From an uncultured virus (IMG/VR IMGVR_UViG_3300027782_000042) (lineage: Duplodnaviria; Heunggongvirae; Uroviricota; Caudoviricetes), in IMG/VR virus record IMGVR_UViG_3300027782_000042: 20,000 nt of DNA; one strand, written 5' to 3'. Below are positions 265 to 19,639 of this stretch, piece by piece (position 1 is the stretch's first letter; each line of letters starts with the position of its first letter). The notes under the pieces were generated by a model. It was not told the DNA's origin. It was given only the letters and a program-made list of their open reading frames with translations, and made no database searches. A program made the position numbers and the translations under genes.

Positions 265-266
265 TT

Positions 267-1781: not shown

Positions 1782-1799
1782 AGTTTTCTAAATTCATTT

Positions 1800-2402: not shown

Positions 2403-3103
2403 TATTTTAAATCTTTTAATTGTTTTATGAATTCAACTAATACATCAACATCTTTTTCACAATACTCAGCAATTTGGGGTAATTTTTGTTCTACCCAATA
2501 AGCGTGATGTACTTTATCTCCTGTTATTTCTCCGTCTTTAGGTGTTGGTATTCCCATTGTGGAACAAACCAAATCTAAGGAACCTATTGACGTGTAAGAC
2601 CCATATTGCCAAATTTCTTTTGTGTCAATTGCTTTAACCTCCCAAGGCTTCGTATCGTAAGATGGTAATAACTTAGACGGTAAAATTCCGTTTATTATCA
2701 TTCTTTTTGCCAACATAGGAATATCAAAATTCTTTAAGTTATGACCACATAGATAGAAATCTAATTTATGACATCTATCGAGAAGACTTCTCACTTGTGT
2801 TAATAAAACTTTTTCATCATCACCTGAGAATGTTTGTTTTTTTACTTCTCCGTTATCCATAACAAACGCCATAGAAACACAAACAATTTTTGCAAACTCA
2901 GGAACTAATGCTGATCGTTTTTTAAAAACTTCTTCTATTGATAATCCATTATCTTCTGGAAATCTTTTTTGAAACCAATCAAAATATTTCTCAAACTGTT
3001 CTGCAATTTCAGGACTAAATCTTTCGCAAGATTCTAAATCAGGACAACCTCCAACAGTTTCAATGTCAAGGAATAAAATTTTTGTTATAGGTACGTTAAT
3101 CAT
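2402..3103 (-). CDS. Stand-alone PolB-like 3'-5' exonuclease (DEDDy, DNA_pol_B_exo2-like)
   Basis: ExoI FLDIET, ExoII GHNLKNFDIP, ExoIII YCEKDV. TAATG coupling to dut. Confidence 0.88.
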   Translation of the reverse strand: MINVPITKILFLDIETVGGCPDLESCERFSPEIAEQFEKYFDWFQKRFPEDNGLSIEEVFKKRSALVPEFAKIVCVSMAFVMDNGEVKKQTFSGDDEKVLLTQVRSLLDRCHKLDFYLCGHNLKNFDIPMLAKRMIINGILPSKLLPSYDTKPWEVKAIDTKEIWQYGSYTSIGSLDLVCSTMGIPTPKDGEITGDKVHHAYWVEQKLPQIAEYCEKDVDVLVEFIKQLKDLK

Positions 3104-3105
3104 CT

Positions 3106-3747
3106 TTATACTATTTTTCTTATAATAAATTCATTACTACTTTTTAAATCTGGATTATTGGTTTTTTTTATTAAATCATAATTTAAACTACCAATAATTT
3201 CGTATTCATTTTTATCTAAATTATTTACAATATCATTTACCGCAGGATAAACGCCAGGACTATGAACATCATCTAAGTAGTCGTCAAAAACTATGAAACC
3301 TCCAGGTAAAACCAAATCTTTATAGTTTTCAAAGTCTTTTATGACCGCATTATATTTATGGTCACCATCAATAAATAAAATATCAACATTTTTAATTAAA
3401 TCGTAAACTTTTTTAATTGTTTCTTCTGATTTAGAATCCCCCTCAATATAATCATATTCGCAATTGTCATGTTTAAAGTTGTTAACATTTTTTATTGGAA
3501 TTTCTTTTTTTATTGGGTATCCTATGTCGACGCTGATTATTTTTTTAACTTTTTGGTTTTTAGACATTAAAGATGCGGATCCTCCCGCAAAAGTTCCTAT
3601 TTCCATGTATGTGATATTATCTTTATCAATATTCTCACATAAATCATAAAGAATATGAAAATGATTGTGAAAAGTATGTCTTTCCATATTTTTTATAATT
3701 TCATTAACTATGTTTAACGAAATTTCAGTTATATTAATATTTGTCAT
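3106..3747 (-). CDS. Class I SAM-dependent methyltransferase (Methyltransf_24-like, probable glycan O-methyltransferase)
   Basis: Motifs MEIGTFAGGS, ISVDI, GDS, ILFIDGDHKY..V..DF, LPGGFIVFDDY. Confidence 0.88.
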   Translation of the reverse strand: MTNINITEISLNIVNEIIKNMERHTFHNHFHILYDLCENIDKDNITYMEIGTFAGGSASLMSKNQKVKKIISVDIGYPIKKEIPIKNVNNFKHDNCEYDYIEGDSKSEETIKKVYDLIKNVDILFIDGDHKYNAVIKDFENYKDLVLPGGFIVFDDYLDDVHSPGVYPAVNDIVNNLDKNEYEIIGSLNYDLIKKTNNPDLKSSNEFIIRKIV

Positions 3748-3749
3748 TA

Positions 3750-4967
3750 TTATTTAATTAAAGATTTATAAAATTGATATCTTTCGCGAGTAACGTTATT
3801 AAGGTCATATTTGTCTTTTACGGTTTCATAAAGTCTTTCTCCAAGATCAACAATCATACTTGGATTGTCGACCAACTTTTTAATATTTTTTGCCCAATCA
3901 CTATGGTTATTATTTTCGTTAACCAATAAAGCGTTACCATCGGTAAATTTACCTTGATGTAAAGCGTGTTTTAAATCAATCGTGTATGGACCAACATTTG
4001 ATGCAATTAAAGCTTTCTTATAAAATCCTGCCTCAATAACTTTCAATTGAGACTTCATTCTATTAAAGATATGATTTTGAATTGGTGATAACGATATGTC
4101 AAATTTAGAATAATTTTTAGCATATGACGTTACAGGTTTTGTCCATACTCTTACATAGTTCTCGTTATTTAAAGACCCAAAATAGGTTTCATCCGTAAAT
4201 TTATTTAAAAACTCTTTGTATTTTGGTGAAACTATTTTGTAGTTATTAGTAAAAATTTCTTCGTACTTAACCCATACAGTTTCTTCAGGGTTGATTGGTC
4301 TTTGTTTCTTTTCTCCTGTTTGTTTATTTATTTCGGTAACCATACCTCTTGTGTCAAAACCACAAACATAAAATTGTAATTTATCTTGTATTTGGGATAA
4401 TTTGCTAACCGTCCCATCTAATAATTTTAAATCATGTAAGTGAGAGGATCCCCCTAACCAACCTACTCTTATTTTATCTGAAGGTAATGTTTCCTCATTG
4501 TATTGAGGATCCTGTGGGTCTATTGCGTTTGGTAACACAATAACATTTTTATTAAATTTTCTAATCTCATTAGCAAAAATTTCAGTGGTTGTTGTTACGT
4601 ATGAGGCGGCTTTAAGATTTTGAACTATTTTTTCATGTATCTTATTTGCCAAGATAAGTTGTTGTATTGGATGTTCCTTTGTTGGTAACCAATAATCATC
4701 AATATCCCCAACAACAATAATTCCTTCTGATTTTAATTTATTTATTAAAGATAAAGATTTCTCATAATCTTGCCCAATACTTCTATGAAAATGAACAATT
4801 TGGTATTTTTTAAAATAGTTGATGTCATCAACGTTTGGTTGATAATCAATATCAATATGAAATTCTTCAGGGTACATGTTTTGTAATTTAACATGTGGAT
4901 CTATAGATCTATATTTACCAACACCTGATTGATCTGAAGGTAATACTAATACGTTAATTTTTTCCAT
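3750..4967 (-). CDS. GT-B fold glycosyltransferase (GT4-like, phage type)
   Basis: SGVGKYRSIDPH, DIDDYW, VTTTT..FA, VLPNAID, RVGWLGGSSHLHDL, FDISLSPI...FNRMKSQLKVIEAG...LIASNVGPY. Confidence 0.85.
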   Translation of the reverse strand: MEKINVLVLPSDQSGVGKYRSIDPHVKLQNMYPEEFHIDIDYQPNVDDINYFKKYQIVHFHRSIGQDYEKSLSLINKLKSEGIIVVGDIDDYWLPTKEHPIQQLILANKIHEKIVQNLKAASYVTTTTEIFANEIRKFNKNVIVLPNAIDPQDPQYNEETLPSDKIRVGWLGGSSHLHDLKLLDGTVSKLSQIQDKLQFYVCGFDTRGMVTEINKQTGEKKQRPINPEETVWVKYEEIFTNNYKIVSPKYKEFLNKFTDETYFGSLNNENYVRVWTKPVTSYAKNYSKFDISLSPIQNHIFNRMKSQLKVIEAGFYKKALIASNVGPYTIDLKHALHQGKFTDGNALLVNENNNHSDWAKNIKKLVDNPSMIVDLGERLYETVKDKYDLNNVTRERYQFYKSLIK

Positions 4968-5695: not shown

Positions 5696-6079
5696 TTAAT
5701 CAAAAATTGCATTAATAACAACTCTTGACATACTTTTATCTCCGTTAGGGTTATAGTTTGGTCTAGGTTCGTTAAATTTCTCCATAGTTGGTTTTAATGC
5801 TATTATTTTATCTACTCTAAATAATCTCCAGCTTGGTAATGGTTTTTTACCTTTATACCCCCTATGTGAAGCTCCTTCCATATCCCATGCTCTTAAGACA
5901 GGGTTTCCGGATTTACTATACCCAAAACAAACAGGTTCAATAATTCTTAAACCTTTTCCTCCCGGTTCATCACCATCATAATAAACAATCACCCTACGCT
6001 TTTTTTTGATTGCGTCGACTATTGAGGATATTGATGCTACCTCAACAATAATGTCTTTAAATGAATTGTAAAGTTTCAT
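5696..6079 (-). CDS. Stand-alone WYL-domain protein
   Basis: AIKKKRRVIVYY...GLRIIEPVCFG......LRAWD.....WRLFRVDKI matches the WYL pattern (AI...+.v.i.Y ... R.ieP ... l.a.. ... R.FRlDrI). No HTH domain. Confidence 0.8.
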   Translation of the reverse strand: MKLYNSFKDIIVEVASISSIVDAIKKKRRVIVYYDGDEPGGKGLRIIEPVCFGYSKSGNPVLRAWDMEGASHRGYKGKKPLPSWRLFRVDKIIALKPTMEKFNEPRPNYNPNGDKSMSRVVINAIFD

Positions 6080-6370: not shown

Positions 6371-6832
6371 TTAAATTATTTTTTTTATTAAATCGTTTAT
6401 CCTAATTAGGGTTTCTTTTATTTTTAAATTGTCTGTCATATCAGACGCATCAAATTCACTTGCTAAAGGTCCCAAGTCTTTAAGAAAATCCTTATCTATT
6501 GGGTCCTCTGGCATGTAATCATTTTTAATGGTCTTTGTAAAATTATCGGTATCTCTCAAACCTTTTATTGTGTTTGTTACCCAATTTCTCATTAAATCAC
6601 CACCATTTAGTATGTACGGGGCATCTTCCTTGTTTCCATTATAATATCTAAACCAATTATCAATTCTTTCTAACTGTTGGAAAGTTGCGTTTTTAGAACT
6701 CCTTAATTCCTCATTTCTTTTATGACCCTCAACAGAAGAATCAGAATTAGGGACTTGTTGAAAACAAATTGTTAAATGATCCAACATTTCTTTTGGTACA
6801 TCAATAATTTTATTATATAAATCTTTATTCAC
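6371..6832 (-). CDS. Hypothetical phage protein, possibly head-associated
   Basis: Overlaps the upstream gene by 8 nt. GHKRNEEL..KNATFQQLERIDNWF...YILNGGDLMRNWV resembles, from recall only, a small phage domain G..RA.QL...lS...ikRm.SfF...wllWGGd.g..W. Confidence 0.65.
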   Translation of the reverse strand: MNKDLYNKIIDVPKEMLDHLTICFQQVPNSDSSVEGHKRNEELRSSKNATFQQLERIDNWFRYYNGNKEDAPYILNGGDLMRNWVTNTIKGLRDTDNFTKTIKNDYMPEDPIDKDFLKDLGPLASEFDASDMTDNLKIKETLIRINDLIKKII

Positions 6833-7808
6833 CTTTTTTTAAGATTTGTATTAATTTATTTAAGTTAATGTCTTCTTTATCTGCAATTGTTTTAATTGAT
6901 TGTAGATTTTTTTTTATAATTCTATAAATAGGCGTCTCATCGTCAGATTTAAGTTTTTCTTTTTTTACAATATCTTCACTATCTGATTTTTTACTTAAAA
7001 CTATTTCATCAATTAAAGTGTCTAACTTATCTTTTTCTAATTCGAACAATCTTCTTTTTGTATAACAATTTTTACATCTACCTCGTTTTTTTTCTTGTTT
7101 TAATTCTAAATCTAATTTTTTATCAAAACCAAAAACTTTACATCTCTCATCTCTTTCTAAAAACTCTTCAACTCCAAGGTTTTTCATCGATTTCATACAT
7201 GCCGGATATGTTTTATCATATTTTGTTTCTTCACCACCAAACGTACCTGTTATATCTTCTTCATCTATTACAGGTTTGTCTTCTTCGGATTCACCATAAT
7301 AAATTCTTGCAAATGGAAATTGACTTACTCTGGACATTCTTGCCGTTTGATCCGTTGTTTTTCTTGGGTGGTGATTTAATTTTAAAATTGGAACATTAGA
7401 TCCAATTGGAGATCCGTCGGACGAAACCAATTCGTCAATTTCACCATCGGTTTTTACTTCTTTATATTTTTCAGGAACTTTACTTGTTAGTTTAATCCCT
7501 AACTTTTGACCAAGTTTAACAATGAATGGTGTTGCAATTGATGATCCAGGGACCAACTGAAAAACAATTAGAGGTATTAATTTTAATATATCTGAAGATT
7601 GATCTTTAATAAATTTTTTCTCTTCTTCATTTAAATCAAAATCTTTATTTTTTAAATAGTCTTTGGTTGTTGAAATAAGTATTTTTACAAGTAATCTTGT
7701 TTCTTTTACTTCGCTAATTGCTAAATCTTTATATTTTTTTAACGCACCCAAAACCGAACCAGTATTTTTTGGTTTGTCTTCACTTAACAAATTATTTGAA
7801 TGTGACAT
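6825..7808 (-). CDS. Protein with N-terminal LETM1-like helix/transmembrane segment and a charged C-terminal region
   Basis: aa ~33-112: EVKETRLLVKIL...DLNEEEKKFIKDQSSDILKLIPLIVFQLVPGSSIATPFIVKL resembles the LETM1 motif (L...E+..+.....D+.+++P...F.++P....+.P.++K). The C-terminal part contains CKNC. Confidence 0.6.
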   Translation of the reverse strand: MSHSNNLLSEDKPKNTGSVLGALKKYKDLAISEVKETRLLVKILISTTKDYLKNKDFDLNEEEKKFIKDQSSDILKLIPLIVFQLVPGSSIATPFIVKLGQKLGIKLTSKVPEKYKEVKTDGEIDELVSSDGSPIGSNVPILKLNHHPRKTTDQTARMSRVSQFPFARIYYGESEEDKPVIDEEDITGTFGGEETKYDKTYPACMKSMKNLGVEEFLERDERCKVFGFDKKLDLELKQEKKRGRCKNCYTKRRLFELEKDKLDTLIDEIVLSKKSDSEDIVKKEKLKSDDETPIYRIIKKNLQSIKTIADKEDINLNKLIQILKKGE

Positions 7809-7861: not shown

Positions 7862-10717
7862 ATGGCGGGACAAAATATTAATCAATATGTGTTTCAAAAA
7901 TATAAAATAAACACCGTTAATGAGTCAATGGATATGTCATTGTCGTCAGATGAAAGAGATTATAACGAGGAAGTTATTTTTTCTCCATACCTTATTGCGG
8001 AAACCTACGGTAATAAATTACCAATTAATATTGATATTAATAATCCATTAACATCTCAAGGATTAATATTAAATTATAAAAATTTTAATTCTAATAATGT
8101 TTTTGTTTCTCAAAATTACTATAACCCAAACAATGAAGATCTAACTTGTTTTTCATCATCAACATTATGTGATGTAGGTTTAACAGGTATAGATAATGGT
8201 TTGGTTGATAAAATGACGGGGGAGACCTTAAATTATACAAAAGGATTATATAATGATTTTTTAAAATTTGACAGATTACATTTTGATAGAAGAATTAAAT
8301 TATTCCAAGTAACGGGATACACCCAAAGTAATAATAAATTTTCAGGAATTACAAAAGACACTCTTTATGAGGTTGTAAGTAAAAACGATCCTCAGTTTGG
8401 TAAGTACCATGAATTGTACGGTGGTTTCTACCAAGGATTTTACAAACTATTTGGATTTGATTATGAGGTTTTACCTGAAAGATCTTCTAAAGGTTGGTCG
8501 GTAGAAATGTTATTAAGACCTAGATTTGTTAATGAATACAATCCATTACCTACTGAAACAACTCTTAATGAGATGTACCCAAAAAATAAAAATACGTTTT
8601 TTTATTTTGGTACAAGAGCCGAAAATAAATTTTACCATCATGCCGATGGACACCCAAATTGTTTAACTGGTTATACAAGAGTTACTAATTCATTAAGTGG
8701 TTGTCCGTCAACATGTGCTTGTTGTGATAGAACAGTTACGGATAGTAGATGTGTTTATGTTTACCCACCAAGATCTTATAATAACCAACATGATCCACAT
8801 TTAAATTATGGATGTCCACTTTGTGGTGGAGACAAAAAAATCTCACTAACATGTGGTTGTGGTTGTAATGAAAGTTCATGTGAAACTTGTGGGTGGGAAT
8901 GCCAAATACATAATTGTGAAACAGTAATTTTACCAACACCTACCCCGTCACCAACACCAACACCAACTCCATCATGTGAAACACAAACACCGGTATGTAC
9001 ACCAACCTGTACTAAATGTGAAACGTGCGATGAGTGTACAACTTGTGGACCAACGGGTTTTACTTCTATTGAGTACACATGTGAGACCGATCCATTGTTT
9101 GATGTTATGTCAAATAACATATCGTTTAAACTTTGTGGTGATGTAAAAAACCCACAGATTGGTGTAAAGGTATTAAGGTTTACTGGTGGTTGTGAAACAA
9201 CGGGAACTTGTGTAACGGGTAAAACATATGTTACAGGATATACTATTGATGAATATTGTTCACCACCAATTTATCCTTATTGTGAAATTGTTAACCCTGA
9301 TTTCTTAAATGAAGAGCATTGGTTTTTAGTTAATGTAACTTGGGAAAGATATTCATGGTTTGATTTCTGTGATTTAAAATTTTATGGAGGTTTGTTTGAC
9401 ATTACTAAATTTGAATACTTGGAATCCTTGGCAAACAACAGTGTTGAATTAATAAGGCCTCCTTTAACCCATAACAATAAAAGCGGAGAATTAATAGAAT
9501 TAGTTAACTTAAATGAAACTTGGTTAGATGAAAAAAAATATAGATTAGGAAGATTAAAGATTTATGTTAACGGTAAAAAAATATATACAATAGAGGACTT
9601 TGAAGAAGTAATACCAAGAGGTTTGTTTACCGATAAAGAAAAACAAATAGGGGTTCCTTTTAATATCTCTTGGGGTGGTGGAACACAAGGATTACATGAA
9701 AATTTAACTTTTTCATCTTGTTCTGCGTTAACATCAAATTACATACAAGATCCAGAATGTTTACCTAATAATATATTAAGTGGTACTACTTTATCAGGGT
9801 TAAGTACTAACATATTACTTGAACAAAATTTCGGGGGAACTTTTGATGGGGGGATATCTCAATTCAGATTTTATATTGAACCGTTAGAATCTGATGAGAT
9901 CAAACATAATTTTAAATTATTAAAAGATAAATTTATTTTATTTGATCCTGATTGTCCTGATTGTGATACTAAATTTTGTAAGACAAATGATTTAACATAT
10001 CAGATAAATAATGTTGTTACAAGCACAACAACAATAAATTCTTTACCACATAGTTTAGGTAGGGTTTATATTGAGGACAAAAGAGATTTAAATTATCTTA
10101 TAAAAAACAACCAACGAACACTCCAACAAATATCAACACCACCAAAAGTTTTAACTCAAAGGTATTGGGATGCCAATGGGTGGTGGGGAGATCAAGGAAA
10201 CACACCTCAATGTGTTGGGTATTCGTGGTCACATTGGTTAGAAGATGGTCCTATACAACAATCGGGAATACCACCGATAATAAAACCTTTTGATATATAT
10301 AAAAACGCACAAAAATTAGATGAGTGGTATGGTGAAAACTATGACGGAACATCAGTTAGAGGGGCGGTAAAATATCTTAAAAATATTGGTAAAGTAAAAT
10401 CATACTATTGGGCGTTTGATGTACAAACATTGTCTGAAACAATTTTAAAATTAGGTCCTGTGGTTGTTGGGACTAATTGGTATAATGGAATGTTTTATCC
10501 TAATAAAACTGGGTTAATTAAAATTAGTGGACAGATGGTTGGTGGTCATGCCTACTTAATAAATGGTGTTGACACAAAAACAAAACAATTTAGAATAAAA
10601 AACAGTTGGGGTAAATCTTGGGGTAATGGTGGACATGCATTTATTTCGTTTAATGATATGTCAAGGTTAATAAAAGAAAATGGAGAAATCTGTTTGGCAA
10701 TTGAATTAGGAAGTTAA
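7862..10717 (+). CDS. Large virion-like multidomain protein: LamG/concanavalin-like domain with Cys-rich and Pro-Thr insert, plus C-terminal papain-like (C1A) cysteine peptidase
   Basis: LamG-like signatures [32 protein letters not shown]...EIKHNF. Peptidase residues Q778/C784 ([12 protein letters not shown]), H896 (GGHAYLING) and N914 ([10 protein letters not shown]). About 22 Cys in aa 267-395. Confidence 0.8.
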
Positions 10718-11463
10718 TGAGTACAAGTATTACAATAGAAAGTATTAATTTTATTGGGGAAAGTGTCACAGTACTTTTCAAACCCGATAACGATTTGGTT
10801 ACAATTAATTTGGGTCCAATAACTCTACCGTTTATATTTTTCCCGGCTTCTTTAAACCCACCAAGAGAAGTATATGGAACATACACAATATTAGTGGATG
10901 GAAGTAAATGTGTTAACATACTTAATGTTCCTAGAGTTACACCAACACCAACACCGACGATTACTCCAACAAGAACTCAAACACCAACACCAACACCTAC
11001 TAACACTCCAACAACGACTTTGGATCCTTGTAAAGTACCAACACCAACACCTACGGTAACGCCAACAATAAGTTTAACTCCAACAATAACACCTACACCA
11101 AGTGCGACTTGTACTAATCCTTGTGGGTGTGGTGACCCAACACCAACACCAACAGTTAAACCACCTAAACCAACACAAACTTGTACAAACCCTTGTGGAT
11201 GTACCCCAACACCTACACCAACAGGAACTAATACCCCAACACCTACACCAACAGGAACTAATACCCCAACACCTACACCAACAGGAACTAATACTCCAAC
11301 ACCTACACCAACAGGAACTAATACTCCAACACCTACACCAACAGGAACTAATACTCCAACACCAACACCTACACCAACAACACCTACATTTATATTTTAT
11401 ATAACCGGTGAAGATGGGAATAGGATACTTTCAGAAATAAGTCAGTACATAATTGCAGAATAA
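10717..11463 (+). CDS. Mucin-like Pro/Thr-rich protein (small N-terminal beta domain, ~150 aa PT tract, short C-terminal motif)
   Basis: TAATG-coupled to the upstream gene. Contains TPTPTP runs, TCTNPCGC x2, [10 protein letters not shown] x5 and a C-terminal [14 protein letters not shown]. Confidence 0.8.
11202..11363 (+). repeat. 30-bp coding tandem repeat (~5.4 copies) encoding [10 protein letters not shown]
   Basis: Unit ac(c/t)ccaacacctacaccaacaggaactaat at 11203, 11233, 11263, 11293, 11323 and partially at 11353. The first three copies have ACC, the later ones ACT. Confidence 0.95.
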
Positions 11464-11465
11464 AC

Positions 11466-11473
11466 TATTTATA
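11466..11473 (+). promoter_or_regulatory. TATTTATA putative late promoter motif
   Basis: TATTTATAATTAAAAA, with the core 15 nt before ATG 11489. The 16-mer is identical to the one at 18550. Confidence 0.7.
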
Positions 11474-11488
11474 ATTAAAAAATAAAAA

Positions 11489-13921
11489 ATGTCAGACGTT
11501 AAAATATCTCAATTTCCATATGTGGGTAATACAGGTTATACACCAAATGATTTGTTTGTGTTTGTTAACTATTTGAGCCCAACCGGAACAACAAGTAACA
11601 CAAAAATAGACGACTTTAAAAATTTCATAATAATTGATTCTTATAATTATTTTCTACCATTAAGTGGAGGGAGTGTAACAGGATCAACAACATTTACAAA
11701 TGGATTAACCGCAAACACAATATCCGCAACAACATATCAAAATTTACCTAAAGATATATTTGTTACAGGAGGAACATACACTAATGGGAGTACCACGTTT
11801 ACAAACAATACAGGTGGTACATTTACAATTACAGGGTTTAGTACAACAACACCATTTACAGGTGGTACCGTATCAGGTGCGACTAATTTCACAAATGGAT
11901 TAACCGCAAACACAATATCTGCAACTACGTATCAAAATTTACCGCAAGATATATTTGTTACAGGAGGAACGTACACTAATGGTGAAATACTATTTAAAAA
12001 TAACGCAGGAAATAATTTTACTGTTACAGGACTACCTATTGGAGGTGCTGGAGGAGAAGTTTATTATTTAAATCTATCTCAAACACAAACACCATATCAA
12101 GAATTTTCACCAATAGGAGTTATCTTACCTGAACAAGTAAGTGCGGTAACAATAAATAGTGGTGTGACATCAACAATTGCTTCATTTTTAACTCCTGTTG
12201 GGTATCCAAATACAATAACAATACCTGCAGGGATTTGGAGTTTTTATTTACATTCATATAAGGATGTGGTAAATGCTTCTTTTGATATTTTTTGTGAGGT
12301 TTATGTTAGAACAACAGGAGGCACAGAAACTTTAATAATAACAACAGATGGGGCAGATGTTAAGACTGTCGACCCCGATACTTATTTTGAATTAAGCGAA
12401 GGATATTATAGTGGGTCAACAATCGATGTTACAGATAGAATTTTAGTTAAAGTTTTATCAACAAACACAGGTTCCCAAACTAATACTGTTACATTTTTAA
12501 CCGAAGGTCAACAACATTATTCTTACGGTATAACACCGTTTAGTAATTTTAACGCACTTACTTGTGAAACTTTAAGTGGGTGTACTACTATTGTAGATTT
12601 AGAAAACAATAAGGTTAATAAGAGTGGTGATACTATGACAGGCACATTAAATGTTCCCACAATATCTGCAACAACATATCAAAATTTACCTAAAGATATA
12701 TTTGTTACAGGAGGAACATACACTAATGGGAGTACCACGTTTACAAACAATACAGGTGGTACATTTACAATTACAGGGTTTAGTACAACAACACCATTTA
12801 CAGGTGGTACCGTATCAGGTGCGACTAATTTCACAAATGGATTAACCGCAAACACAATATCGGCAACAACCATAACTGTTAATGGGTCCATAATAGCTAC
12901 AGGAATAACCCAATCAATATTTTCAGGTAATAGTTCTTCAGATTTAGTAAGAATCACACAAACAGGTTCAGGTAGAGCGTTTGTTGTAGAAGATTCGGCA
13001 AACCCTGATTTTACACCATTTCAGATTAATAATCAAGGAAAAGTCGGTGTTGGAGAAAGTTTAATAATATCTAGTTGGTATTCTTCAACAACAGTAAATG
13101 CGTTTTTAGAAATAAACTCAACACTTGACAGTCGTGACTATGGTATTTATCAAGCGGGTCCTGTTGTTAGTTTACCATCTTATGGTGTATTCGCTAATGC
13201 AGCTCAAATTGGTGTTTTTGGTAGTATTGCTAGTGATGGTGGTGGTATTGGTGTTTATGGTCAAACAGGAAATGCTGGTGGTGAATCACAGTCAGGTGAT
13301 TATATAGGAGGAAAGTTTGAATCATTCACATCTGGAGGTAATAGATATTCCTTACAATTACTTGATGGCACAGAAGGTGTTGGTAAAGTTTTAGTGTCGC
13401 AAACATCAGATGGTAAATCCAATTGGAGCTCAAGTTTAACAGGGTTAACAACTGTTGGTACTACATTACTAAAAATTAGTGGTATTACTGTTAACCCAAA
13501 ACAAACAATTGCATTATTTTTTGGTCACGATTCATTGAGTCCTGGAGACACCCAAACCTATTATATTGGTAATGCAATAAATTTAACAGCTCCGATTTCA
13601 GGATCTGATGGTAGAAGAGTTATTATTCCAAAAACAGGAAATATTGTTAGAGTTGATATTTGTCAAAACGTTGGCGGGGTTGTGGCTACTGGGTCAACTG
13701 AGTATAGTACCTTTACAATAAACAACGTAACTCAATCAACTCAATCCACAATAACAACAACATATCTTTATAATACATCAAATGGAAATATTGCATATGA
13801 TTTAGGAACACCATTATCCGTAAATGTTGGGGATAAAATAGAAATAAGGTGGACCACACCTGCTTGGGTAATTAACCCAACCACAGTAAGACAACAAATG
13901 AACGTTTATTTAGAATATTAA
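11489..13921 (+). CDS. Tail fibre/appendage-like structural protein with 65-aa Thr/Gly-rich repeats
   Basis: N-terminal DVKISQFP. Fibre-type motifs FLPLSGGSVTG and KVNKSGDTMTGTL. Repeated ANTISATTYQNLP.DIFVTGGTY. LQLLDGTEGVGKVLVS..DGKSNW motif of the kind seen in Bacteroidota/phage fibres. Beta-rich C-terminal domain. Confidence 0.75.
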   Translation: MSDVKISQFPYVGNTGYTPNDLFVFVNYLSPTGTTSNTKIDDFKNFIIIDSYNYFLPLSGGSVTGSTTFTNGLTANTISATTYQNLPKDIFVTGGTYTNGSTTFTNNTGGTFTITGFSTTTPFTGGTVSGATNFTNGLTANTISATTYQNLPQDIFVTGGTYTNGEILFKNNAGNNFTVTGLPIGGAGGEVYYLNLSQTQTPYQEFSPIGVILPEQVSAVTINSGVTSTIASFLTPVGYPNTITIPAGIWSFYLHSYKDVVNASFDIFCEVYVRTTGGTETLIITTDGADVKTVDPDTYFELSEGYYSGSTIDVTDRILVKVLSTNTGSQTNTVTFLTEGQQHYSYGITPFSNFNALTCETLSGCTTIVDLENNKVNKSGDTMTGTLNVPTISATTYQNLPKDIFVTGGTYTNGSTTFTNNTGGTFTITGFSTTTPFTGGTVSGATNFTNGLTANTISATTITVNGSIIATGITQSIFSGNSSSDLVRITQTGSGRAFVVEDSANPDFTPFQINNQGKVGVGESLIISSWYSSTTVNAFLEINSTLDSRDYGIYQAGPVVSLPSYGVFANAAQIGVFGSIASDGGGIGVYGQTGNAGGESQSGDYIGGKFESFTSGGNRYSLQLLDGTEGVGKVLVSQTSDGKSNWSSSLTGLTTVGTTLLKISGITVNPKQTIALFFGHDSLSPGDTQTYYIGNAINLTAPISGSDGRRVIIPKTGNIVRVDICQNVGGVVATGSTEYSTFTINNVTQSTQSTITTTYLYNTSNGNIAYDLGTPLSVNVGDKIEIRWTTPAWVINPTTVRQQMNVYLEY
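11726..12861 (+). repeat. 194-bp perfect direct repeat (11726-11919 = 12668-12861; offset 942 bp, in frame), plus a diverged partial tandem copy at period 195 bp
   Basis: Base-by-base comparison shows identity from gcaacaacatatcaa to aacacaatatc. About 11695-11787 versus 11890-11982 differ mostly at synonymous sites. Confidence 0.93.
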
Positions 13922-13923
13922 TT

Positions 13924-14094
13924 ATGGAAAAAGGAACTTATATTATTGAAACCTACACAGTAAATCACCCAACTGAAGGTGATATGACAAAACAACAAAT
14001 TATTTATTACAATCAAAGAGATGAAATTGTTACTCTCGAGTTTTATGATGGATATATAAGACCTGGATACACACTTAAAAATATTTCAGAGTAA
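13924..14094 (+). CDS. Small protein (56 aa), possible fibre-assembly chaperone
   Basis: Below the ORF-track cutoff: MEKGTYIIETYTVNHPTEGDMTKQQIIYYNQRDEIVTLEFYDGYIRPGYTLKNISE. It starts 2 nt after the fibre stop and fills the gap to the next gene. Confidence 0.7.
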   Translation: MEKGTYIIETYTVNHPTEGDMTKQQIIYYNQRDEIVTLEFYDGYIRPGYTLKNISE

Positions 14095-14102
14095 ACAATA
14101 TA

Positions 14103-14570
14103 ATGCCAAACGATATTACAATAACAAATATTACAGGAACATCACCATATGATTTATATGTTTGTGATGTTACAAACACTTTGTGTATTTTTATATCAGG
14201 GTTAACGTCTGTTCCTCCAAGTTACACATTTATTGTTCCTCCACCATTAAACACTTCAGGTTCTTTATTAATTAAAATTATAGATGGAGATGGTTGTGAG
14301 AGATTTGAATATTACTCATGTGTAAGTCCCACGCCAACACCAACACCCACACCAACCCCAAGTCCTTTACCAATATGTTATTGTACTGAGGCCATTGCAT
14401 TAACCGATGCCGATGGTACTTTAGATTTTGTGGATTGCCTTGGTATCGTTAATACATCAGTCCCGATAAGCCATACATCACCATCATATTTCTGTGCGTC
14501 TGTTGTAACAAATTTATCTAATGTTAATATTGTTACCGGACCACCTTGTGTTTCCAATCTTTGTGTTTAA
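14103..14570 (+). CDS. Small Cys-containing two-domain protein with a Pro-Thr linker (probable virion protein)
   Basis: N domain ITITNITGTSPYDLYVCD...IKIIDGDGC, linker [14 protein letters not shown] (14325-14366), Cys-rich C domain. Confidence 0.75.
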   Translation: MPNDITITNITGTSPYDLYVCDVTNTLCIFISGLTSVPPSYTFIVPPPLNTSGSLLIKIIDGDGCERFEYYSCVSPTPTPTPTPTPSPLPICYCTEAIALTDADGTLDFVDCLGIVNTSVPISHTSPSYFCASVVTNLSNVNIVTGPPCVSNLCV

Positions 14571-14617
14571 ATTATTTATTTTAGTTCATTTGTTTATTAT
14601 TTTTTTAAAAAAAAGTA

Positions 14618-15865
14618 ATGAAAATTTTTATACAAATTGCGTCTTATAGGGACCCACAATTAATACCAACAATCAAAAATTGTGTAGACAACTCAAAAAA
14701 TCCACAGAATTTAGTTTTTTCAATTGCAAGACAATTTAATCCTGAGGATAAGTTTGATGATCTCTCAGAATTTGAGTCTGATAAAAGATTTAAAATTCTA
14801 AACATTCCTTATCAAGAATCAAAAGGAGTTTGTTGGGCAAGAAATTTAACTCAACAACAATATGATGGTGAAGAGTATACTTTACAGATAGATTCCCATA
14901 TGCGTTTTGAAAAAGATTGGGACCAAACTTTAATTGACATGATTAAAGATTTACAAACCAAAGGTTATAAAAAACCATTATTAACTGGATATGTGTCGTC
15001 CTTTGATCCTGACAATGACCCTCAAGGTAGAGTTTTAGATCCGTGGAGAATGACGTTTGACCGATTTACACCTGAAGGTTGTGTTTTCTTTTTACCCGAA
15101 GTGATTCCTAATTGGAAAGACCTAACGGGACCAATACCATCAAGATTTTACTCGGCACACTTTTGTTTCACATTAGGAGAATTTTCAAAAGAAGTTCAAC
15201 ACGATCCCGAATATTATTTTCACGGAGAAGAAATCTCAATTGCCGTAAGGGCCTATACTCATGGATATGATTTATTTCATCCACATAAAATTGTTATTTG
15301 GCATGAGTACACAAGAAAAGGTAGAACAAAACAATGGGACGACGATAAAGAATGGTATAAGAAAAATGAATCATCACATTCTAAAAATAGAAAACTTTTA
15401 GGTGTTGATGGGGAAATATTAAACGAGGAGATTGGAATCTATGGGATGGGAACAGGACGTACCGTTACAGATTACGAAAAATACTCAGGTATACTATTTT
15501 CAAAAAGAGCGGTACAACAATATACAATAGATAAGAAATATCCGCCAAATCCATACGATTATAAGAACGAGGAAGAATGGATTAATAGTTTTTCAATGAT
15601 CTTTAAACATTGTATTGATGTTTCATTTAACGATGTTTCAGAAAATGATTATGAGTTTTGGGTTGTTGCATTTCACAATGAAAAAGATGAAACACTCTTT
15701 AGAAAAGATGCGGACACAGGAGAAATTCTTAGGATGAAACAAGATCCTGACGGATATTGTAAAGTATGGAGAGAGTTTAACACAACAGAGAAACCAAAGT
15801 ACTGGGTTGTTTGGCCGTACTCAAAATCAAAAGGATGGTGTAATAGATTAACGGGAAATTTATAA
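14618..15865 (+). CDS. GT60-like polypeptide GlcNAc-transferase (Pfam GlcNAc; Gnt1/Gnt2-like) with extra Trp-rich C-terminal domain
   Basis: IFIQIASYRDPQL..TI, ESKGVCWARNL.QQ.YDGEEYTLQIDSHMRF.KDWD (DSH metal-binding motif at aa 92-94), AHFCF, DP.YYFHGEEISIAVRAYTHGYDLFHP, VIWHEY.R. Confidence 0.85.
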   Translation: MKIFIQIASYRDPQLIPTIKNCVDNSKNPQNLVFSIARQFNPEDKFDDLSEFESDKRFKILNIPYQESKGVCWARNLTQQQYDGEEYTLQIDSHMRFEKDWDQTLIDMIKDLQTKGYKKPLLTGYVSSFDPDNDPQGRVLDPWRMTFDRFTPEGCVFFLPEVIPNWKDLTGPIPSRFYSAHFCFTLGEFSKEVQHDPEYYFHGEEISIAVRAYTHGYDLFHPHKIVIWHEYTRKGRTKQWDDDKEWYKKNESSHSKNRKLLGVDGEILNEEIGIYGMGTGRTVTDYEKYSGILFSKRAVQQYTIDKKYPPNPYDYKNEEEWINSFSMIFKHCIDVSFNDVSENDYEFWVVAFHNEKDETLFRKDADTGEILRMKQDPDGYCKVWREFNTTEKPKYWVVWPYSKSKGWCNRLTGNL

Positions 15866-15868
15866 ATT

Positions 15869-16873
15869 GTGAATTTAGAAATTAGACACGAATTTAGGGA
15901 CATTAGATTTGGTAATGATGAATTTTATGTGACAAGTTTTTTTAAAAAATTTTACGAAAAACTTAAAACAAAATACCCTAATCACAATTTTACGGTTAAC
16001 AATAAAAAAGAATACGAAAAATATGGTCAAGGAGGAATTCATAGTTGTATGAATTTTTCAATTATAAATCCGTTAAACAAAAATTATATACTAATTTCTT
16101 TTTTTGATAATTGGAAATATCATTTCATGTCTCACTTAGGGTGGGAAGCGAACAAAATGAAACAATTTTTTTACCCTGGAGGGTTTAATTTTTTAGACTA
16201 TTTTAATTTTAAAGAAATCTCTAAAACTAACAGAGATTTAATATTCCCAAAAAACATAGATTCAATTTATAATTCATTTTATTACGGACCTTATTTTGAT
16301 TCTTGTTATGATGAAATGAAAGTTTTATATAATAACAAATCAAATATAGAAAAAAGTGATAAATTATATTTTAGAGGATGGTTATGGGATTTTAGAAAAG
16401 AAATGGTTAAAAACATTAATAGAGAAGATGTTTTAATAATTGATAAAAATGAGAACAATCAAAATTTAAATTATAATACTTATTTAAACGAAACTTCACA
16501 ATACGCCGCAGCACTAAGTTTACCTGGTGGTAATGAAATGTGTAATAGGGATATTGAATGTTTTGGTATTGGTGTTCCTGTTATAAGACCTACATTGAAT
16601 ATTGAATATAATGATCCATTGATACCTAACTATCATTACATTAGTTGTTATCATTTTTGTGATTATAGTGATGGGGGACACCCAAAATATTTATCTTATG
16701 AAGATTTTAAAAAAAATTTATTAATAACATGGGATAAAGTAAAAAATAATAAAGAATATTTAAATTTTGTTTCTACTAATGCAAGGTCTTGGTTTGAAAG
16801 AAATTGTACTGTGGAAAACAACATTAATCATATTTTAGATAAACTTAATTTAGAAAAATTATTAGAGGAATGA
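15869..16873 (+). CDS. GT-B glycosyltransferase, GT90/CAP10-like (GT47-like alternative)
   Basis: GTG start. KLYFRG, Y..YLNE...Y...LSLPGG.EMCNRDIECFGIGVPVIRP, PLIPNYHYI, FVSTNARSWFE match GT90-type C-terminal motifs. Confidence 0.65.
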   Translation: MNLEIRHEFRDIRFGNDEFYVTSFFKKFYEKLKTKYPNHNFTVNNKKEYEKYGQGGIHSCMNFSIINPLNKNYILISFFDNWKYHFMSHLGWEANKMKQFFYPGGFNFLDYFNFKEISKTNRDLIFPKNIDSIYNSFYYGPYFDSCYDEMKVLYNNKSNIEKSDKLYFRGWLWDFRKEMVKNINREDVLIIDKNENNQNLNYNTYLNETSQYAAALSLPGGNEMCNRDIECFGIGVPVIRPTLNIEYNDPLIPNYHYISCYHFCDYSDGGHPKYLSYEDFKKNLLITWDKVKNNKEYLNFVSTNARSWFERNCTVENNINHILDKLNLEKLLEE

Positions 16874-18543
16874 TAACATTAGTAACAGGTTTATGGGATA
16901 TCGGTAGAGGTAATATGACAGAGGGTTGGTCAAGAAACTTTGATTTTTATTTAGAAAAATTTAAAGAACTGTTAAAGATTGATTGTAACATGATAATTTT
17001 TGGCGATATAGAATTACAAAAATTTGTTACTGATCAAAACAGAGACTTAAATAAAACTAGGTTTATATTAAGAGATTTAAGTTGGTTTAGAAATAACGAT
17101 TACTATGAAAAAATACAAACCATAAGAACAAATCCTAATTGGTATAACCAAGTTGGTTGGTTAAAAGACTCGACACAAGGTAAGTTAGAAATGTATAACC
17201 CATTAGTTATGTCTAAAATGTTTTTATTACATGACGCAATGTTACTTGATCCTTTTAATTCTGAAAAACTTTATTGGATAGATGCCGGATTAACAAACAC
17301 AGTTAGTGTTGGTTATTTTACTCATGATAATGTTTTAGAAAAAATAAATAAAACATTTAATAACTTTACGTTTATATGTTTTCCGTATGAAACAAATACT
17401 GAAGTACACGGATTTGAGATAAATAAAATGACAGATCATATTGGTAAAAAACCAAATATGGTATCAAGAGGAGGATTTTTTGGGGGGACCAAAGAAACAA
17501 TTTCCCAAATGAATTCATTATATTATCAATTATTGTTTCAAACCTTGAACTACGGTTTAATGGGTACAGAAGAAAGTTTATTCACAATTTTAACCTACAC
17601 TCAACCTAATATAATTGATTACGTAAAAATAGAATCAAATGGGTTATTATATAAATTTTTTGAGGATGTTAAAACCAACAATGTGGTCATAGAAAATAAA
17701 AAACCAAAAATAATAACTAACAATGAAAATAATGGGGGGGTTGGTTTATACGTGATAACATTTAATTCTCCTAAACAGTTTGAAGTTTTGGTTGAGTCTA
17801 TGATGGAATATGATCCTTCATTTATATCCAAAACCAAAAAATTTTTATTAGATAATTCAACTGATTTAACAACAACAAATGAATACTTGAGAATTTGTGA
17901 GATGTATGGTTTTGTTCACATAAAAAAGGATAATATTGGAATAACAGGTGGTAGGCAGTTTATTGCTGAGCACTTTAACAAACAAAATGATCTATCAACA
18001 TATTATTTTTTTGAGGACGATATGGCTTTCTACCCAAAGGAAAGTGATACATGTAAAAATGGTTTTAATCGATTTGTTAAAAATTTATTTAACATAACTC
18101 AAGAAATAATAAAAAAAGAAAATTTTGATTTTTTAAAATTAAATTTTACTGAATTTTTTGGTAGTCACGATAAACAATGGGCTTGGTATAATGTTCCCCA
18201 AAGTTTTAGGGAATCTCATTGGGAAAATAATAAATTATTGCCAAAACAAGGTCTTGACCCTAATTCACCAAACTTAGAATATAAACATATAAAATCACAT
18301 AAAGGGGTCCCATATGCTAGCGGTGAAGTTTATTTATCTAATTGGCCGATATTAATGACAAAGGAAGGAAATTATAAATGTTATATTAAAACAAAATTTC
18401 AAAACCCATATGAACAAACATTAATGAGTCATTGTTATCAAGAAACAATTAAAGGAAACATTAATCCATCTGTTTTATTACTTACACCAACGGAACATAA
18501 TAGATTTGATTTTTATAGTTCCGATTTAAGAAAAGAATGTTAG
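16870..18543 (+). CDS. Bifunctional glycosyltransferase: HtrL/YibB (WlaTC)-like N-terminal domain plus GT2-like C-terminal domain
   Basis: N domain: TLVTGLWDIGR, YNPLVMSKMFLL.DA...DPFNSE..YWIDAG, GGFFGG, GTEESLF. C domain: YVITFNSP, LDNS, NIGITGGRQ, YYFFEDDM. ATGA overlap with the upstream gene. Confidence 0.78.
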   Translation: MITLVTGLWDIGRGNMTEGWSRNFDFYLEKFKELLKIDCNMIIFGDIELQKFVTDQNRDLNKTRFILRDLSWFRNNDYYEKIQTIRTNPNWYNQVGWLKDSTQGKLEMYNPLVMSKMFLLHDAMLLDPFNSEKLYWIDAGLTNTVSVGYFTHDNVLEKINKTFNNFTFICFPYETNTEVHGFEINKMTDHIGKKPNMVSRGGFFGGTKETISQMNSLYYQLLFQTLNYGLMGTEESLFTILTYTQPNIIDYVKIESNGLLYKFFEDVKTNNVVIENKKPKIITNNENNGGVGLYVITFNSPKQFEVLVESMMEYDPSFISKTKKFLLDNSTDLTTTNEYLRICEMYGFVHIKKDNIGITGGRQFIAEHFNKQNDLSTYYFFEDDMAFYPKESDTCKNGFNRFVKNLFNITQEIIKKENFDFLKLNFTEFFGSHDKQWAWYNVPQSFRESHWENNKLLPKQGLDPNSPNLEYKHIKSHKGVPYASGEVYLSNWPILMTKEGNYKCYIKTKFQNPYEQTLMSHCYQETIKGNINPSVLLLTPTEHNRFDFYSSDLRKEC

Positions 18544-18549
18544 TTGTTA

Positions 18550-18557
18550 TATTTATA
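18550..18557 (+). promoter_or_regulatory. TATTTATA putative late promoter motif
   Basis: TATTTATAATTAAAAA, with the core 14 nt before ATG 18572. Confidence 0.7.
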
Positions 18558-18571
18558 ATTAAAAACAATTA

Positions 18572-19639
18572 ATGGAATTCTTTATTAAGAAAAACGCTAC
18601 ATTACCAATTTTAAAAATGCAAGTTGTTAAAGATGGTCGTAGTGATTTCAATAAAATGATGGGACTAATCGAAAATTCCGCCATATTCTTTTCTATGGTG
18701 GATATAGAAACAGGTATTCCTAAAATTACAACTAGACCTGCGGGGTTTGTATCTAAAAAAATGTTAGACCCAAATGCCGATCCTGAATATTATGTTTACT
18801 ATCAATTTACAAATAAAGACACAAGAAAAGTTGGTAGGTATGAAGGCCAATTTCTATTAAGAAATGAAGATGGTGTTTTAATATTACCAATAAGAGATAA
18901 GTTATTTATTAACATACAAGAAAGTTTTATTGCGGAAGACCTTCCATATGACAGTTGCTATGTTAGTGAATTTCCTTGTTGTATTTTACCAACCCCCACA
19001 CCATCACCAAACCCCACACCAATAGTAACAACTACAACAACATTTCAACCAACACCAACACCTTCACCATTACCTTTAGAGGTTGTTTTAAATGTGATAA
19101 TCACACCAGGATCCACAATAATAGACTATAATCTTACGTCAAATATTCCATTTGATGATCCAATATTAGTTTATTTTAATCATACTCTTAATGTTTACAC
19201 AGGTTCTCCAATAAATATTATAACAGGAGTTACAATATCTGTCGGAGAAATTTTTGGTAACACACAAGTTATTTTAGAAGAAAATTTTAATAATTTAACA
19301 AGAATAGATACTTTTAGTAATATAATTACCTACCCAAACCCTCTTAATCTTACTATAATAGAAAATTATCCTGTAACACCAACACCAACACCAACGGTAA
19401 CGCCTACCAACACACCAACATTAACACCAACACCAACCCCTACACCAACATCGGTTATAGAGATTTTAATTAACCCTATAATAACTGAGAACGGAGAATA
19501 TATTGATGTTGGTGGGAATTTTTATTTAATGTTTGTAGATCCACCACCTCAAGAGTTAATAAACCCGTTAATTGTTGGTAATGATGAATATTTAATTATT
19601 GGTGACGAAGAATATTTAGAATTTGTAGATCCAATATAA
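18572..19639 (+). CDS. BppU-like baseplate/fibre-anchor protein with two Pro-Thr linkers and a duplicated 30-aa C-terminal motif
   Basis: FFIKKNATLP.LK...VYYQFT..DT.KVGRYEGQF.L....G.LILP matches the BppU N-terminal pattern. PT tracts at 18989-19075 and 19370-19453. LINP.I....EY...G...YL.FVDP occurs twice. Confidence 0.7.
   Translation: MEFFIKKNATLPILKMQVVKDGRSDFNKMMGLIENSAIFFSMVDIETGIPKITTRPAGFVSKKMLDPNADPEYYVYYQFTNKDTRKVGRYEGQFLLRNEDGVLILPIRDKLFINIQESFIAEDLPYDSCYVSEFPCCILPTPTPSPNPTPIVTTTTTFQPTPTPSPLPLEVVLNVIITPGSTIIDYNLTSNIPFDDPILVYFNHTLNVYTGSPINIITGVTISVGEIFGNTQVILEENFNNLTRIDTFSNIITYPNPLNLTIIENYPVTPTPTPTVTPTNTPTLTPTPTPTPTSVIEILINPIITENGEYIDVGGNFYLMFVDPPPQELINPLIVGNDEYLIIGDEEYLEFVDPI

What the first reader, a model, noticed from the sequence alone, without database searches (positions are those of the whole stretch)
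7862..19639. Candidate phage-encoded mucin-type O-glycosylation system: GT60-like initiating transferase plus two more GT genes embedded among Pro/Thr mucin-like virion proteins
Seen: four co-oriented structural-type genes carry Pro-Thr tracts (8933-8974; ~10938-11388; 14325-14366; 18989-19075 and 19370-19453), and the fibre is very Thr-rich. Three GT genes (four catalytic domains) sit in the middle of this module at 14618-18543. Known: GT60 enzymes transfer GlcNAc to protein hydroxyls. Dictyostelium Gnt1 acts on Skp1 hydroxyproline, and Gnt2/Trypanosoma OGNT act on Thr of mucin-like proteins; the family is related to GT27 ppGalNAc-Ts. GT90 includes protein O-glucosyl/xylosyltransferases. Inference: the phage initiates and extends O-glycans on its own PT linkers. 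This would create a eukaryote-style mucin coat that could stiffen linkers, resist proteases or mediate adhesion. Capsid glycosylation is known in mycobacteriophages, but I do not know of a GT60/mucin-like pairing described in phage.
Basis: partly seen in the sequence, partly recalled or inferred. Interest (0 to 1): 0.9.

Follow-up and report, generated by a model that had tools for sequence, protein, structure and literature searches.

The report
Phage mucin-type sugar-coating gene cassette
An uncultured freshwater jumbo phage carries an enzyme shaped like those that start mucin-type sugar chains, set among its own proteins with proline-threonine stalks, and the same pairing recurs in unrelated phages and bacteria, so it probably sugar-coats those stalks, although no sugar has been measured on this phage.

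Summary
Observation confirmed. 14618-15865 is a soluble GT60-family enzyme (PF11397, E=1.5e-70) whose model is closest to mucin-initiating ppGalNAc-transferases (Z 21.4 and 20.0, next 16.7). 16870-18543 has two GT-A domains. 15869-16873 only looks GT-B-like; 'GT90' is unconfirmed. GT60 plus the tandem GT-A gene is a conserved core (79 of 80 related loci) around a variable slot of 0-8 sugar genes. Pro-Thr tracts track GT60: 18 of 18 GT60-positive large phage records have 3-48 (TP)3 matches, while 15 GT60-negative T4-like genomes have 0-1, across three capsid-tree groups. Near bacterial homologues such tracts are enriched (15 of 44 long loci; about 2.5 expected). Cultured XacN1 has the same two genes, and PAS-positive virion proteins were reported (PMC5852040). 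Against: no activity shown, virion location of the window's proteins is inferred, most bacterial loci lack a tract, and some small phages have tracts without GT60. Best reading (0.7): cytoplasmic O-HexNAc glycosylation of the phage's own Thr-Pro linkers. This scan noted the same system earlier on other genomes.

The parts
7862..10717 (+). 951-aa protein: conserved unknown N-terminal region interrupted by a Pro-Thr tract (8927-8983), C-terminal papain-like C1 peptidase domain; candidate acceptor
   Evidence: PF00112 E=4.7e-7, phrog_16701 E=6.9e-55; tract; relatives with and without the peptidase or tract
10717..11463 (+). 248-aa protein: about 74-aa conserved N-terminal module plus the longest Pro-Thr stalk (10936-11073, 11203-11394; [10 protein letters not shown] repeats); main candidate acceptor
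   Evidence: the same module occurs alone (74-75 aa) or with 40-260 aa of tract in relatives
11489..13921 (+). 810-aa Thr-rich (17%) protein without Pro-Thr tract, with a 70-aa internal duplication; fibre-like by inference only
   Evidence: no family hit above cut-off; singleton cluster among the first 84 loci
13924..14094 (+).
14103..14570 (+). 155-aa protein: about 73-aa conserved module (aligns with the module of 10717), Pro-Thr linker 14316-14372, Cys-rich tail; candidate acceptor
14618..15865 (+). GT60-family (PF11397) glycosyltransferase, 415 aa, no membrane anchor; GT-A domain about 1-330 plus a small C-terminal beta domain; proposed initiating polypeptide HexNAc-transferase
   Evidence: PF11397 E=1.5e-70; pLDDT 96; top folds ppGalNAc-Ts; D92, S93, H229 at least 90% conserved and H94, E205 invariant in 98 sequences; hydropathy maximum 0.65
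15869..16873 (+). 334-aa probable GT-B-type glycosyltransferase in the variable slot; family not fixed (GT90 unconfirmed)
   Evidence: Atlas look-alikes carry RXYLT1_C (57-58% of members), Glyco_trans_1_2 (83%) or GT90 (13-37%); no relevant hit; family present in 18 of 84 loci including near-duplicates
16870..18543 (+). 557-aa tandem GT-A enzyme: HtrL/YibB-type domain (1-267) and a second GT-A domain (286-549); conserved partner of GT60, proposed chain extender
   Evidence: PF09612 E=2.7e-17; model pLDDT 93; Z 12.7 to BoGT6a for domain 1 and Z 15.6 to B4GALNT1, 15.3 to POMGnT1 for domain 2; D138, E382, D384 invariant in 75 sequences
18572..19639 (+). 355-aa protein: conserved 125-138-aa N-terminal domain with optional Pro-Thr tails (18989-19075, 19370-19459); candidate acceptor
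   Evidence: many orthologues are the bare domain without tract; no family or PDB hit

Best explanation
The phage encodes its own soluble, mucin-type protein O-glycosylation pathway. In the infected cell's cytoplasm the GT60 enzyme adds a first HexNAc (alpha-GlcNAc by family precedent; donor not shown) to Thr, possibly also Ser, of Pro-Thr linkers in the phage's appendage or decoration proteins. The conserved tandem GT-A enzyme extends the chain, and an exchangeable slot of further glycosyl-, methyl- and other sugar-modifying genes (here one GT-B-like gene) diversifies it. The likely effect is stiff, protease-resistant stalks that present adhesion domains. Shown: gene identities, folds, lack of anchors, conserved gene order, co-occurrence with tracts. 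Inferred: acceptor, donor, order of action, virion location, benefit.
For: Fold nearest to ppGalNAc-Ts, standing clear of other GT-A enzymes (8v9q Z 21.4, rmsd 3.5, 277 aligned; 8uhv Z 20.0; next 16.7; Foldseek ranks 1-15 all ppGalNAc-Ts). A characterised GT60 member makes GlcNAc-alpha-O-Thr on mucin-like proteins (PMC9472816 passages). 69 of 70 full-length and 130 of 145 related viral loci carry a Pro-Thr tract (near-duplicates included). Genome-wide (TP)3 matches: 3-48 in 18 of 18 GT60-positive records (16 not chosen by the tract) against 0 in 14 and 1 in 1 of 15 GT60-negative T4-like genomes. The positives form three groups on a capsid tree, one clade rejected at p-AU 2.6e-9. XacN1 ORF325 has tracts while its RsoM2USA homologue has none. 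Phage GT60s fall in several places among bacterial homologues; G012, in the window's capsid clade, has a different GT60 lineage yet is still flanked by tract proteins. Bacteria: 15 of 44 long loci have a match within 10 kb against about 2.5 expected (hand count). Tract carriers include VgrG spikes (6 loci) and crAss-type muzzle proteins (2 loci); in the phage loci they carry LamG, Fib_succ_major, DUF285, PKD and gp38-type domains. XacN1 has both core genes, at least 14 tract proteins and at least two PAS-stained virion proteins.
Against: No enzyme assay or glycan for any member. No window protein has a virion-family hit. The XacN1 stained bands were not tied to tract proteins in the text I could read; the gel was not visible. 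58 of 80 bacterial loci have no (TP)3 in an open frame, though many are short, and local tract presence is not clustered on the GT60 tree (165-177 of 500 shuffles as low). Tracts do not need GT60: of 44 viral records picked by (TP)6, 10 have PF11397, one of these (G018) through an antisense Gly-Val artefact, and none of the other 5 near-complete records has it. Some GT60-positive genomes have few matches (6 in complete G053). The 15 negative genomes were hand-picked and the contrast rests on three groups.
Confidence: 0.7

Rival explanations
1. The cassette glycosylates virion proteins at other sites (for example capsid or tail-tube termini, as in mycobacteriophages, or Thr-rich fibres), and the Pro-Thr tracts are plain unmodified linkers of the same hypervariable module.
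For: Virion glycans on capsid and tail-tube C-termini are described for mycobacteriophages (as cited in PMC12619734). Tracts are optional on three of the window's protein families. Complete small phages have tracts without GT60. G018 has a divergent GT60-like gene among structural genes with only two possibly true matches genome-wide.
Against: Does not explain the genome-wide contrast in three phage groups or the bacterial enrichment, where the matches near GT60 are all or most of those in the genome (5 of 5, 14 of 19, 41 of 45, 55 of 71, 22 of 25).
Confidence: 0.13
2. The cluster remodels the host's surface polysaccharide or LPS to block other phages, the reading given for cyanophage glycosyltransferase clusters.
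For: PMC7824862 passages propose this for polymorphic cyanophage clusters. The variable slot and flanks hold LPS-type families GT25, GT9, GT10, GT8, DegT and epimerase; HtrL/YibB is a bacterial family.
Against: The lead enzyme has the fold of polypeptide transferases; none of the three enzymes has a membrane segment; two cyanophages tested lack both GT60 and tracts; the tract association is unexplained.
Confidence: 0.08
3. The acceptor is hydroxyproline in the tracts, as for Dictyostelium Gnt1 on Skp1 (recalled), after a prolyl hydroxylase acts.
For: Soluble cytoplasmic GT60 precedent (recalled); tracts are about half Pro; oxygenase-looking ORFs (my recall of the motif, no Pfam hit) occur near some loci.
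Against: No PF13640 hydroxylase in 11 of 11 near-complete GT60-positive genomes (divergent enzymes could be missed). The XacN1 oxygenase-looking ORF is also in RsoM2USA, which lacks GT60 and tracts.
Confidence: 0.05
4. The enzymes hypermodify phage DNA.
For: Many phage glycosyltransferases act on DNA (bioRxiv 10.1101/2023.12.21.572611 and PMC12619734 passages); a family B DNA polymerase gene lies just downstream in most related loci.
Against: That preprint's main text has no GT60, PF11397 or HtrL; fold and tract association point to protein acceptors; bacterial homologues sit beside VgrG and secreted proteins.
Confidence: 0.04

Closest known systems
CAZy GT60 / Pfam PF11397 polypeptide alpha-GlcNAc-transferases of protists (T. 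cruzi TcOGNT1; Dictyostelium Gnt1/Gnt2 recalled)
   Same: Profile match far above cut-off; D-S-H metal motif (label recalled) conserved; TcOGNT1 starts chains on Thr of mucin-like proteins that other transferases extend.
   Different: Phage-encoded, no Golgi anchor or signal, extra C-terminal beta domain, clustered with its extenders and candidate substrates; donor and acceptor untested.
GT27 ppGalNAc-transferases (animal and Toxoplasma mucin initiation)
   Same: Closest solved fold, Z 20-21 over about 270 residues.
   Different: Only 9-18% identity, no sequence-level hit; the match covers residues 1-330 only; not a member.
Xanthomonas jumbo phage XacN1 (also Xoo-sp13, Stenotrophomonas CM1, RAS14) glycosyltransferase cluster
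   Same: Orthologous GT60 (42-46%) and full-length HtrL tandem GT (40%); these are the only 4 of 50,697 phage records with either gene at full length; tract proteins genome-wide in the three counted; virion glycoproteins reported for XacN1.
   Different: Separate capsid clade and separate GT60 lineage; a carbamoyltransferase sits in the slot; the passages read do not identify GT60, tracts or sites.
Mycobacteriophage virion glycosylation (Freeman et al. 2023; paper not held, seen only as cited)
   Same: Phage-associated glycans on virion proteins.
   Different: Glycans at capsid and tail-tube C-termini, not on repeated Pro-Thr linkers; no mycobacteriophage record matched the GT60 query.
Bacterial GT60-like loci (Bacteroidota, Gemmatimonadota, Verrucomicrobiota, Burkholderiales T6SS regions)
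   Same: Same enzyme, often the same HtrL tandem partner, tract proteins nearby.
   Different: Uncharacterised in what I could read; carriers are VgrG, T9SS cargo or PqqD-like proteins; most loci show no strict tract.

Membership tests
CAZy GT60 / PF11397 | Match to the family profile above the curated cut-off | tested here: met
   238.9 bits against cut-off 21, E=1.5e-70
CAZy GT60 / PF11397 | GT-A fold nearest to GT27 polypeptide transferases | tested here: met
CAZy GT60 / PF11397 | DxH metal motif, distal His and conserved acidic residue (roles recalled) | tested here: met
   D92, S93, H229 at least 90% conserved; H94, E205 invariant in 98 sequences; D[SA]H in 97 of 97 rows (most rows were found with patterns that include this motif)
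CAZy GT60 / PF11397 | Transfers alpha-GlcNAc from UDP-GlcNAc to a protein hydroxyl | not testable with these tools
   needs an assay
GT27 ppGalNAc-transferase | Sequence similarity to GT27, membrane anchor and ricin lectin domain (architecture recalled) | tested here: not met
   no sequence hit; no hydrophobic segment; no lectin-domain hit
GT90 (15869-16873) | Match to Glyco_transf_90 or to solved GT90 structures | tested here: inconclusive
Tandem GT-A glycosyltransferase (16870-18543) | Two GT-A domains, each with conserved acidic residues | tested here: met
Skp1-type hydroxyproline pathway | Partner prolyl 4-hydroxylase | tested here: inconclusive
   0 of 11 GT60-positive genomes match PF13640; divergent or host enzymes not excluded
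Phage virion glycosylation systems | Acceptor proteins are virion components | tested here: inconclusive
   no virion-family hit for window proteins; tract carriers in other lineages are muzzle, VgrG and baseplate-adjacent proteins
Phage virion glycosylation systems | Glycan detected on virions | not testable with these tools
   uncultured; PAS staining reported only for XacN1
Moraphages (PMC12619734) | Placement with the 25 described genomes | not tested
   similar size range and four core glycosyltransferase groups reported; their sequences were not compared

The most novel reading that the evidence does not exclude
A mobile, soluble mucin-type O-glycosylation module (GT60 initiator, tandem GT-A extender, exchangeable tailoring genes) has been taken up repeatedly by unrelated phages and by bacteria, and wherever it lands Pro-Thr stalks appear on the local surface machines (phage appendages, crAss-type muzzles, type VI spikes). 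It would be a cytoplasmic prokaryotic counterpart of animal mucin glycosylation that gives each phage strain its own glycan coat.
Probability: 0.5. Interest if true: 0.9.

Novelty: new variant of a known kind. Interest (0 to 1): 0.72.

Why it matters
Mucin-type initiation on Thr/Pro repeats is treated as a feature of the eukaryotic secretory pathway (established knowledge). A soluble phage and bacterial version would name the enzyme and the sites behind the unexplained XacN1 virion glycoproteins, add a common, strain-variable glycan layer to an abundant freshwater jumbo-phage group (at least 580 related stretches in IMG/VR), and offer a small anchor-free enzyme that might O-glycosylate proteins in a bacterial cytoplasm. 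It is testable at once with one recombinant enzyme and a synthetic peptide.

Tried and rejected
No whole genome is held for the window; the nearest record G001 is a 54-kb fragment that ends in the tract region and stood in for the window on the capsid tree, labelled positive by kinship only. Sequence searches of PDB found nothing relevant for any of the three enzymes or the 18572 domain. The promoter/terminator scan was at chance level (82 against 73.8 +/- 10.2). The first capsid tree used a wrong-strand ORF for V45v66 and was rebuilt. The G018 tract match is the antisense of a Gly-Val repeat; it was dropped from the 10 of 44 count, and its 'PT' label on the tree is wrong. The 50 bacterial genomes were chosen after seeing and include six short loci with hits (L444, L456, L480, L486, L494, L516); the raw figure is 21 of 50 against 2.8 expected, the figure without them 15 of 44; two long loci left out (L462, L482) have no match, and L458 is probably a crAss-like phage contig. 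CM1 was not counted for tracts. RNA-run contigs cover short pieces of several genes but cannot show expression, since DNA may be present. The fold of the GT60 C-terminal domain and of 15869-16873 was not tested. Literature searches that did not show a GT60/Pro-Thr phage pairing: (listings only; open-licence library). PMC13573597 had no relevant passage. The XacN1 gel and proteomics figure are images I could not see, and bioRxiv supplements were not read; both could bear on precedent.
Full report
Setting. The window is a 29% G+C stretch of an uncultured freshwater phage. No own genome is held. The nearest record, G001, shares 68% of sampled words and encodes a T4-like capsid protein; complete relatives are 270-320 kb. 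Contigs of a run not flagged as the source reproduce the region with 0-2 differences per piece.

Observation. TPTPTP appears in 0, 31, 0 and 1 of 500 shuffles of the four proteins. The 810-aa gene is Thr-rich but has no tract. 7862-10717 ends in a C1 peptidase domain, and a 56-aa ORF at 13924-14094 was missed.

The enzymes. 14618-15865 matches PF11397 at E=1.5e-70. Its model (pLDDT 96, 98 sequences) returns ppGalNAc-transferases as the first 15 Foldseek rows and, against 48,161 chains, mouse GalNAc-T1 (Z 21.4, rmsd 3.5, 277 aligned) and Toxoplasma GalNAc-T3 (Z 20.0), ahead of the next family at 16.7. The D-S-H motif, E205 and H229 are conserved; their roles are recalled. 16870-18543 has an HtrL/YibB hit and folds as two GT-A domains: 1-267 like GT6 enzymes (Z 12.7) and 286-549 like B4GALNT1 and POMGnT1 (Z 15.6, 15.3); Foldseek ranks tandem GT-A enzymes such as LH3, LARGE1 and mimivirus R699 first. 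These middling Z values show fold, not specificity. 15869-16873 has no relevant profile or PDB hit; language-model neighbours are GT-B types, with GT90 on 13-37% of members of two clusters. None of the three has a membrane segment, so they should act in the cytoplasm, where virions assemble (inference).

Conserved anatomy. In 79 of the 80 closest IMG/VR loci GT60 is followed by the HtrL gene, with 0-8 genes between them (near-duplicate loci included, one partner truncated by a contig end and one single-domain). Of 58 representatives of these slot genes, hits include GT25, GT34, GT10, GT31-type, PLOD-type, GT2, GT7C, methyltransferases, DegT, an epimerase and an acetyltransferase; about half have no relevant hit. 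The window's 15869 family fills the slot in 18 of 84 loci. Flanking genes are modular: conserved 73-aa and 130-aa domains occur bare or with tracts of up to 260 aa. Of 45 long tract proteins scanned (of 139 representatives), 23 have a Pfam hit, mostly LamG, Fib_succ_major, DUF285, PKD, propeller, gp38-type or C1 peptidase domains. This suggests surface appendages but does not show it; no window protein has a virion-family hit.

Do tracts track the enzyme? Locally, 69 of 70 full-length and 130 of 145 viral loci have a tract. Genome-wide, the DNA pattern for TPTPTP occurs 3-48 times in 18 of 18 GT60-positive records; two of these were found through the tract, and three were picked by capsid protein alone and all had GT60. 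Fifteen hand-picked T4-like genomes of 160-595 kb without GT60 have 0 (14) or 1 (1) match. On a capsid tree the positives form three groups, each next to negatives, and one clade is rejected (p-AU 2.6e-9; quick tree with long-branch warnings). The sharpest pair is the XacN1 group against RsoM2USA, its closest relative here and in PMC8504454 (passages): XacN1 ORF325 has two tracts, its homologue none. On a GT60 tree the window's enzyme groups with Bacteroidota sequences, the XacN1 enzymes with proteobacterial ones, and G012, from the window's own capsid clade, with Verrucomicrobiota, yet G012 is still flanked by tract genes. That suggests repeated acquisition with the pairing kept (inference; no root or donor test was run).

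Bacteria. Many carry the same HtrL partner, some a carbamoyltransferase as in XacN1. 22 of 80 have (TP)3 in an open frame. Against each genome's own density, 21 of 50 loci have a match within 10 kb where 2.8 are expected, and 352 of 862 matches lie in 0.35% of the DNA. Because six short loci were included after I had seen their hits, the fair figure is 15 of 44 against about 2.5 (hand count). Carriers are VgrG spikes (6 loci), a T9SS cargo, PqqD-like proteins (2) and crAss-type muzzle proteins (2, probably phage contigs in bins).

Results against. Most bacterial loci lack a strict tract. Local tract presence is not clustered on the GT60 tree. Of 44 viral records chosen by (TP)6, 10 have PF11397; one is an antisense artefact, and the other five near-complete records lack it, at least three with a real open-frame tract. 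So tracts do not require GT60; the supported direction is that in large phages GT60 comes with tracts. No prolyl hydroxylase of PF13640 type was found in 11 of 11 GT60-positive genomes, which weakens the hydroxyproline route without excluding it.

What is in print. PMC5852040 (passages and supplement text; gel not seen) reports at least two Schiff-stained XacN1 virion proteins and suggests ORF328 and ORF334 make them. ORF334 is 46% identical to the window enzyme and matches PF11397; XacN1 also has the HtrL tandem gene and at least 14 tract proteins. PMC9472816 (passages) gives the GT60 precedent, GlcNAc-alpha-O-Thr on T. cruzi mucin-like proteins. PMC7824862 (passages) reads cyanophage glycosyltransferase clusters as host-surface modifiers. 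PMC12619734 (abstract, passages, one section) notes four core glycosyltransferases in aquatic 'moraphages' without assigning them. The mycobacteriophage paper was not held and is known here only through citing passages and recall. Nine searches listed no paper linking phage GT60 to Pro-Thr linkers; subscription journals are mostly not covered. Earlier notes of this scan describe the same system on other genomes; they are not independent support.

Verdict. It works most likely like a mucin-type O-glycosylation pathway acting on the phage's own Pro-Thr linkers (0.7). The lead enzyme is a GT60-family member by profile, fold and motif, with activity untested. It is a new variant of a known kind, virus-encoded virion glycosylation, with partial precedent in XacN1. 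Interest 0.72: surprising chemistry for a phage, good comparative support, a cheap decisive assay, but no biochemical proof.

Noticed in passing
window 1-4967 (- strand): A second sugar cluster faces the finding: DegT-type aminotransferase, two-domain GT2, methyltransferase and a GT-B enzyme, mixed with dUTPase and an exonuclease. It could supply or extend the same glycans.
   Followed up: no
window 11720-11929 and 12662-12871: A 70-aa block of the Thr-rich 810-aa protein is duplicated with 4 differences in 210 bases, suggesting a recent internal duplication.
   Followed up: partly
window about 10050-10717: Papain-like C1 peptidase fused to the first tract protein; present in some relatives only, and a homologue is a separate gene in XacN1, CM1 and RAS14.
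   Followed up: partly
window 5696-6079 and 6825-7808 (- strand): Stand-alone WYL-like gene (E=3.7e-4, below cut-off) and a LETM1-related gene.
   Followed up: no
L015, L039, L068, L077 upstream of GT60: Sulfotransferase, APS kinase, nucleotidyltransferase, GT8 and GT9 genes recur beside the cassette in 10-20 related loci, hinting at sulfated glycans.
   Followed up: partly
L466, L469, L495, L502, L510, L518: VgrG spike proteins with Pro-Thr tracts lie within 10 kb of a GT60 homologue in Burkholderiales, Dyella and Acidobacteriota; in four of the six the tract holds most of the genome's matches.
   Followed up: partly
L463:8438-9232, L465:9212-9952: Gemmatimonadota PqqD-like proteins with a Thr-Pro tail lie directly upstream of GT60 and the HtrL gene, resembling a peptide-modification locus.
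   Followed up: no
L456, L458: Contigs binned as bacteria encode crAss-type muzzle proteins with long tracts around GT60: probably a further phage lineage with the pairing.
   Followed up: partly
L295:10304-13540 (G018): A complete 108-kb phage has a very divergent GT60-like gene among head and fibre genes next to a protein with Gly-Val repeats rather than Pro-Thr.
   Followed up: partly
P0121-P0135: Unnamed proteins of 800-2500 aa carry two to four GT60-like stretches; origin not examined.
   Followed up: no
XacN1 ORF232-237 (L520, L527, L530): A run of six 400-750-aa genes with Pro-Thr tracts; a search with ORF233 finds this family only in the four GT60-positive isolates among 50,697 phage records; candidates for the stained virion bands.
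   Followed up: partly
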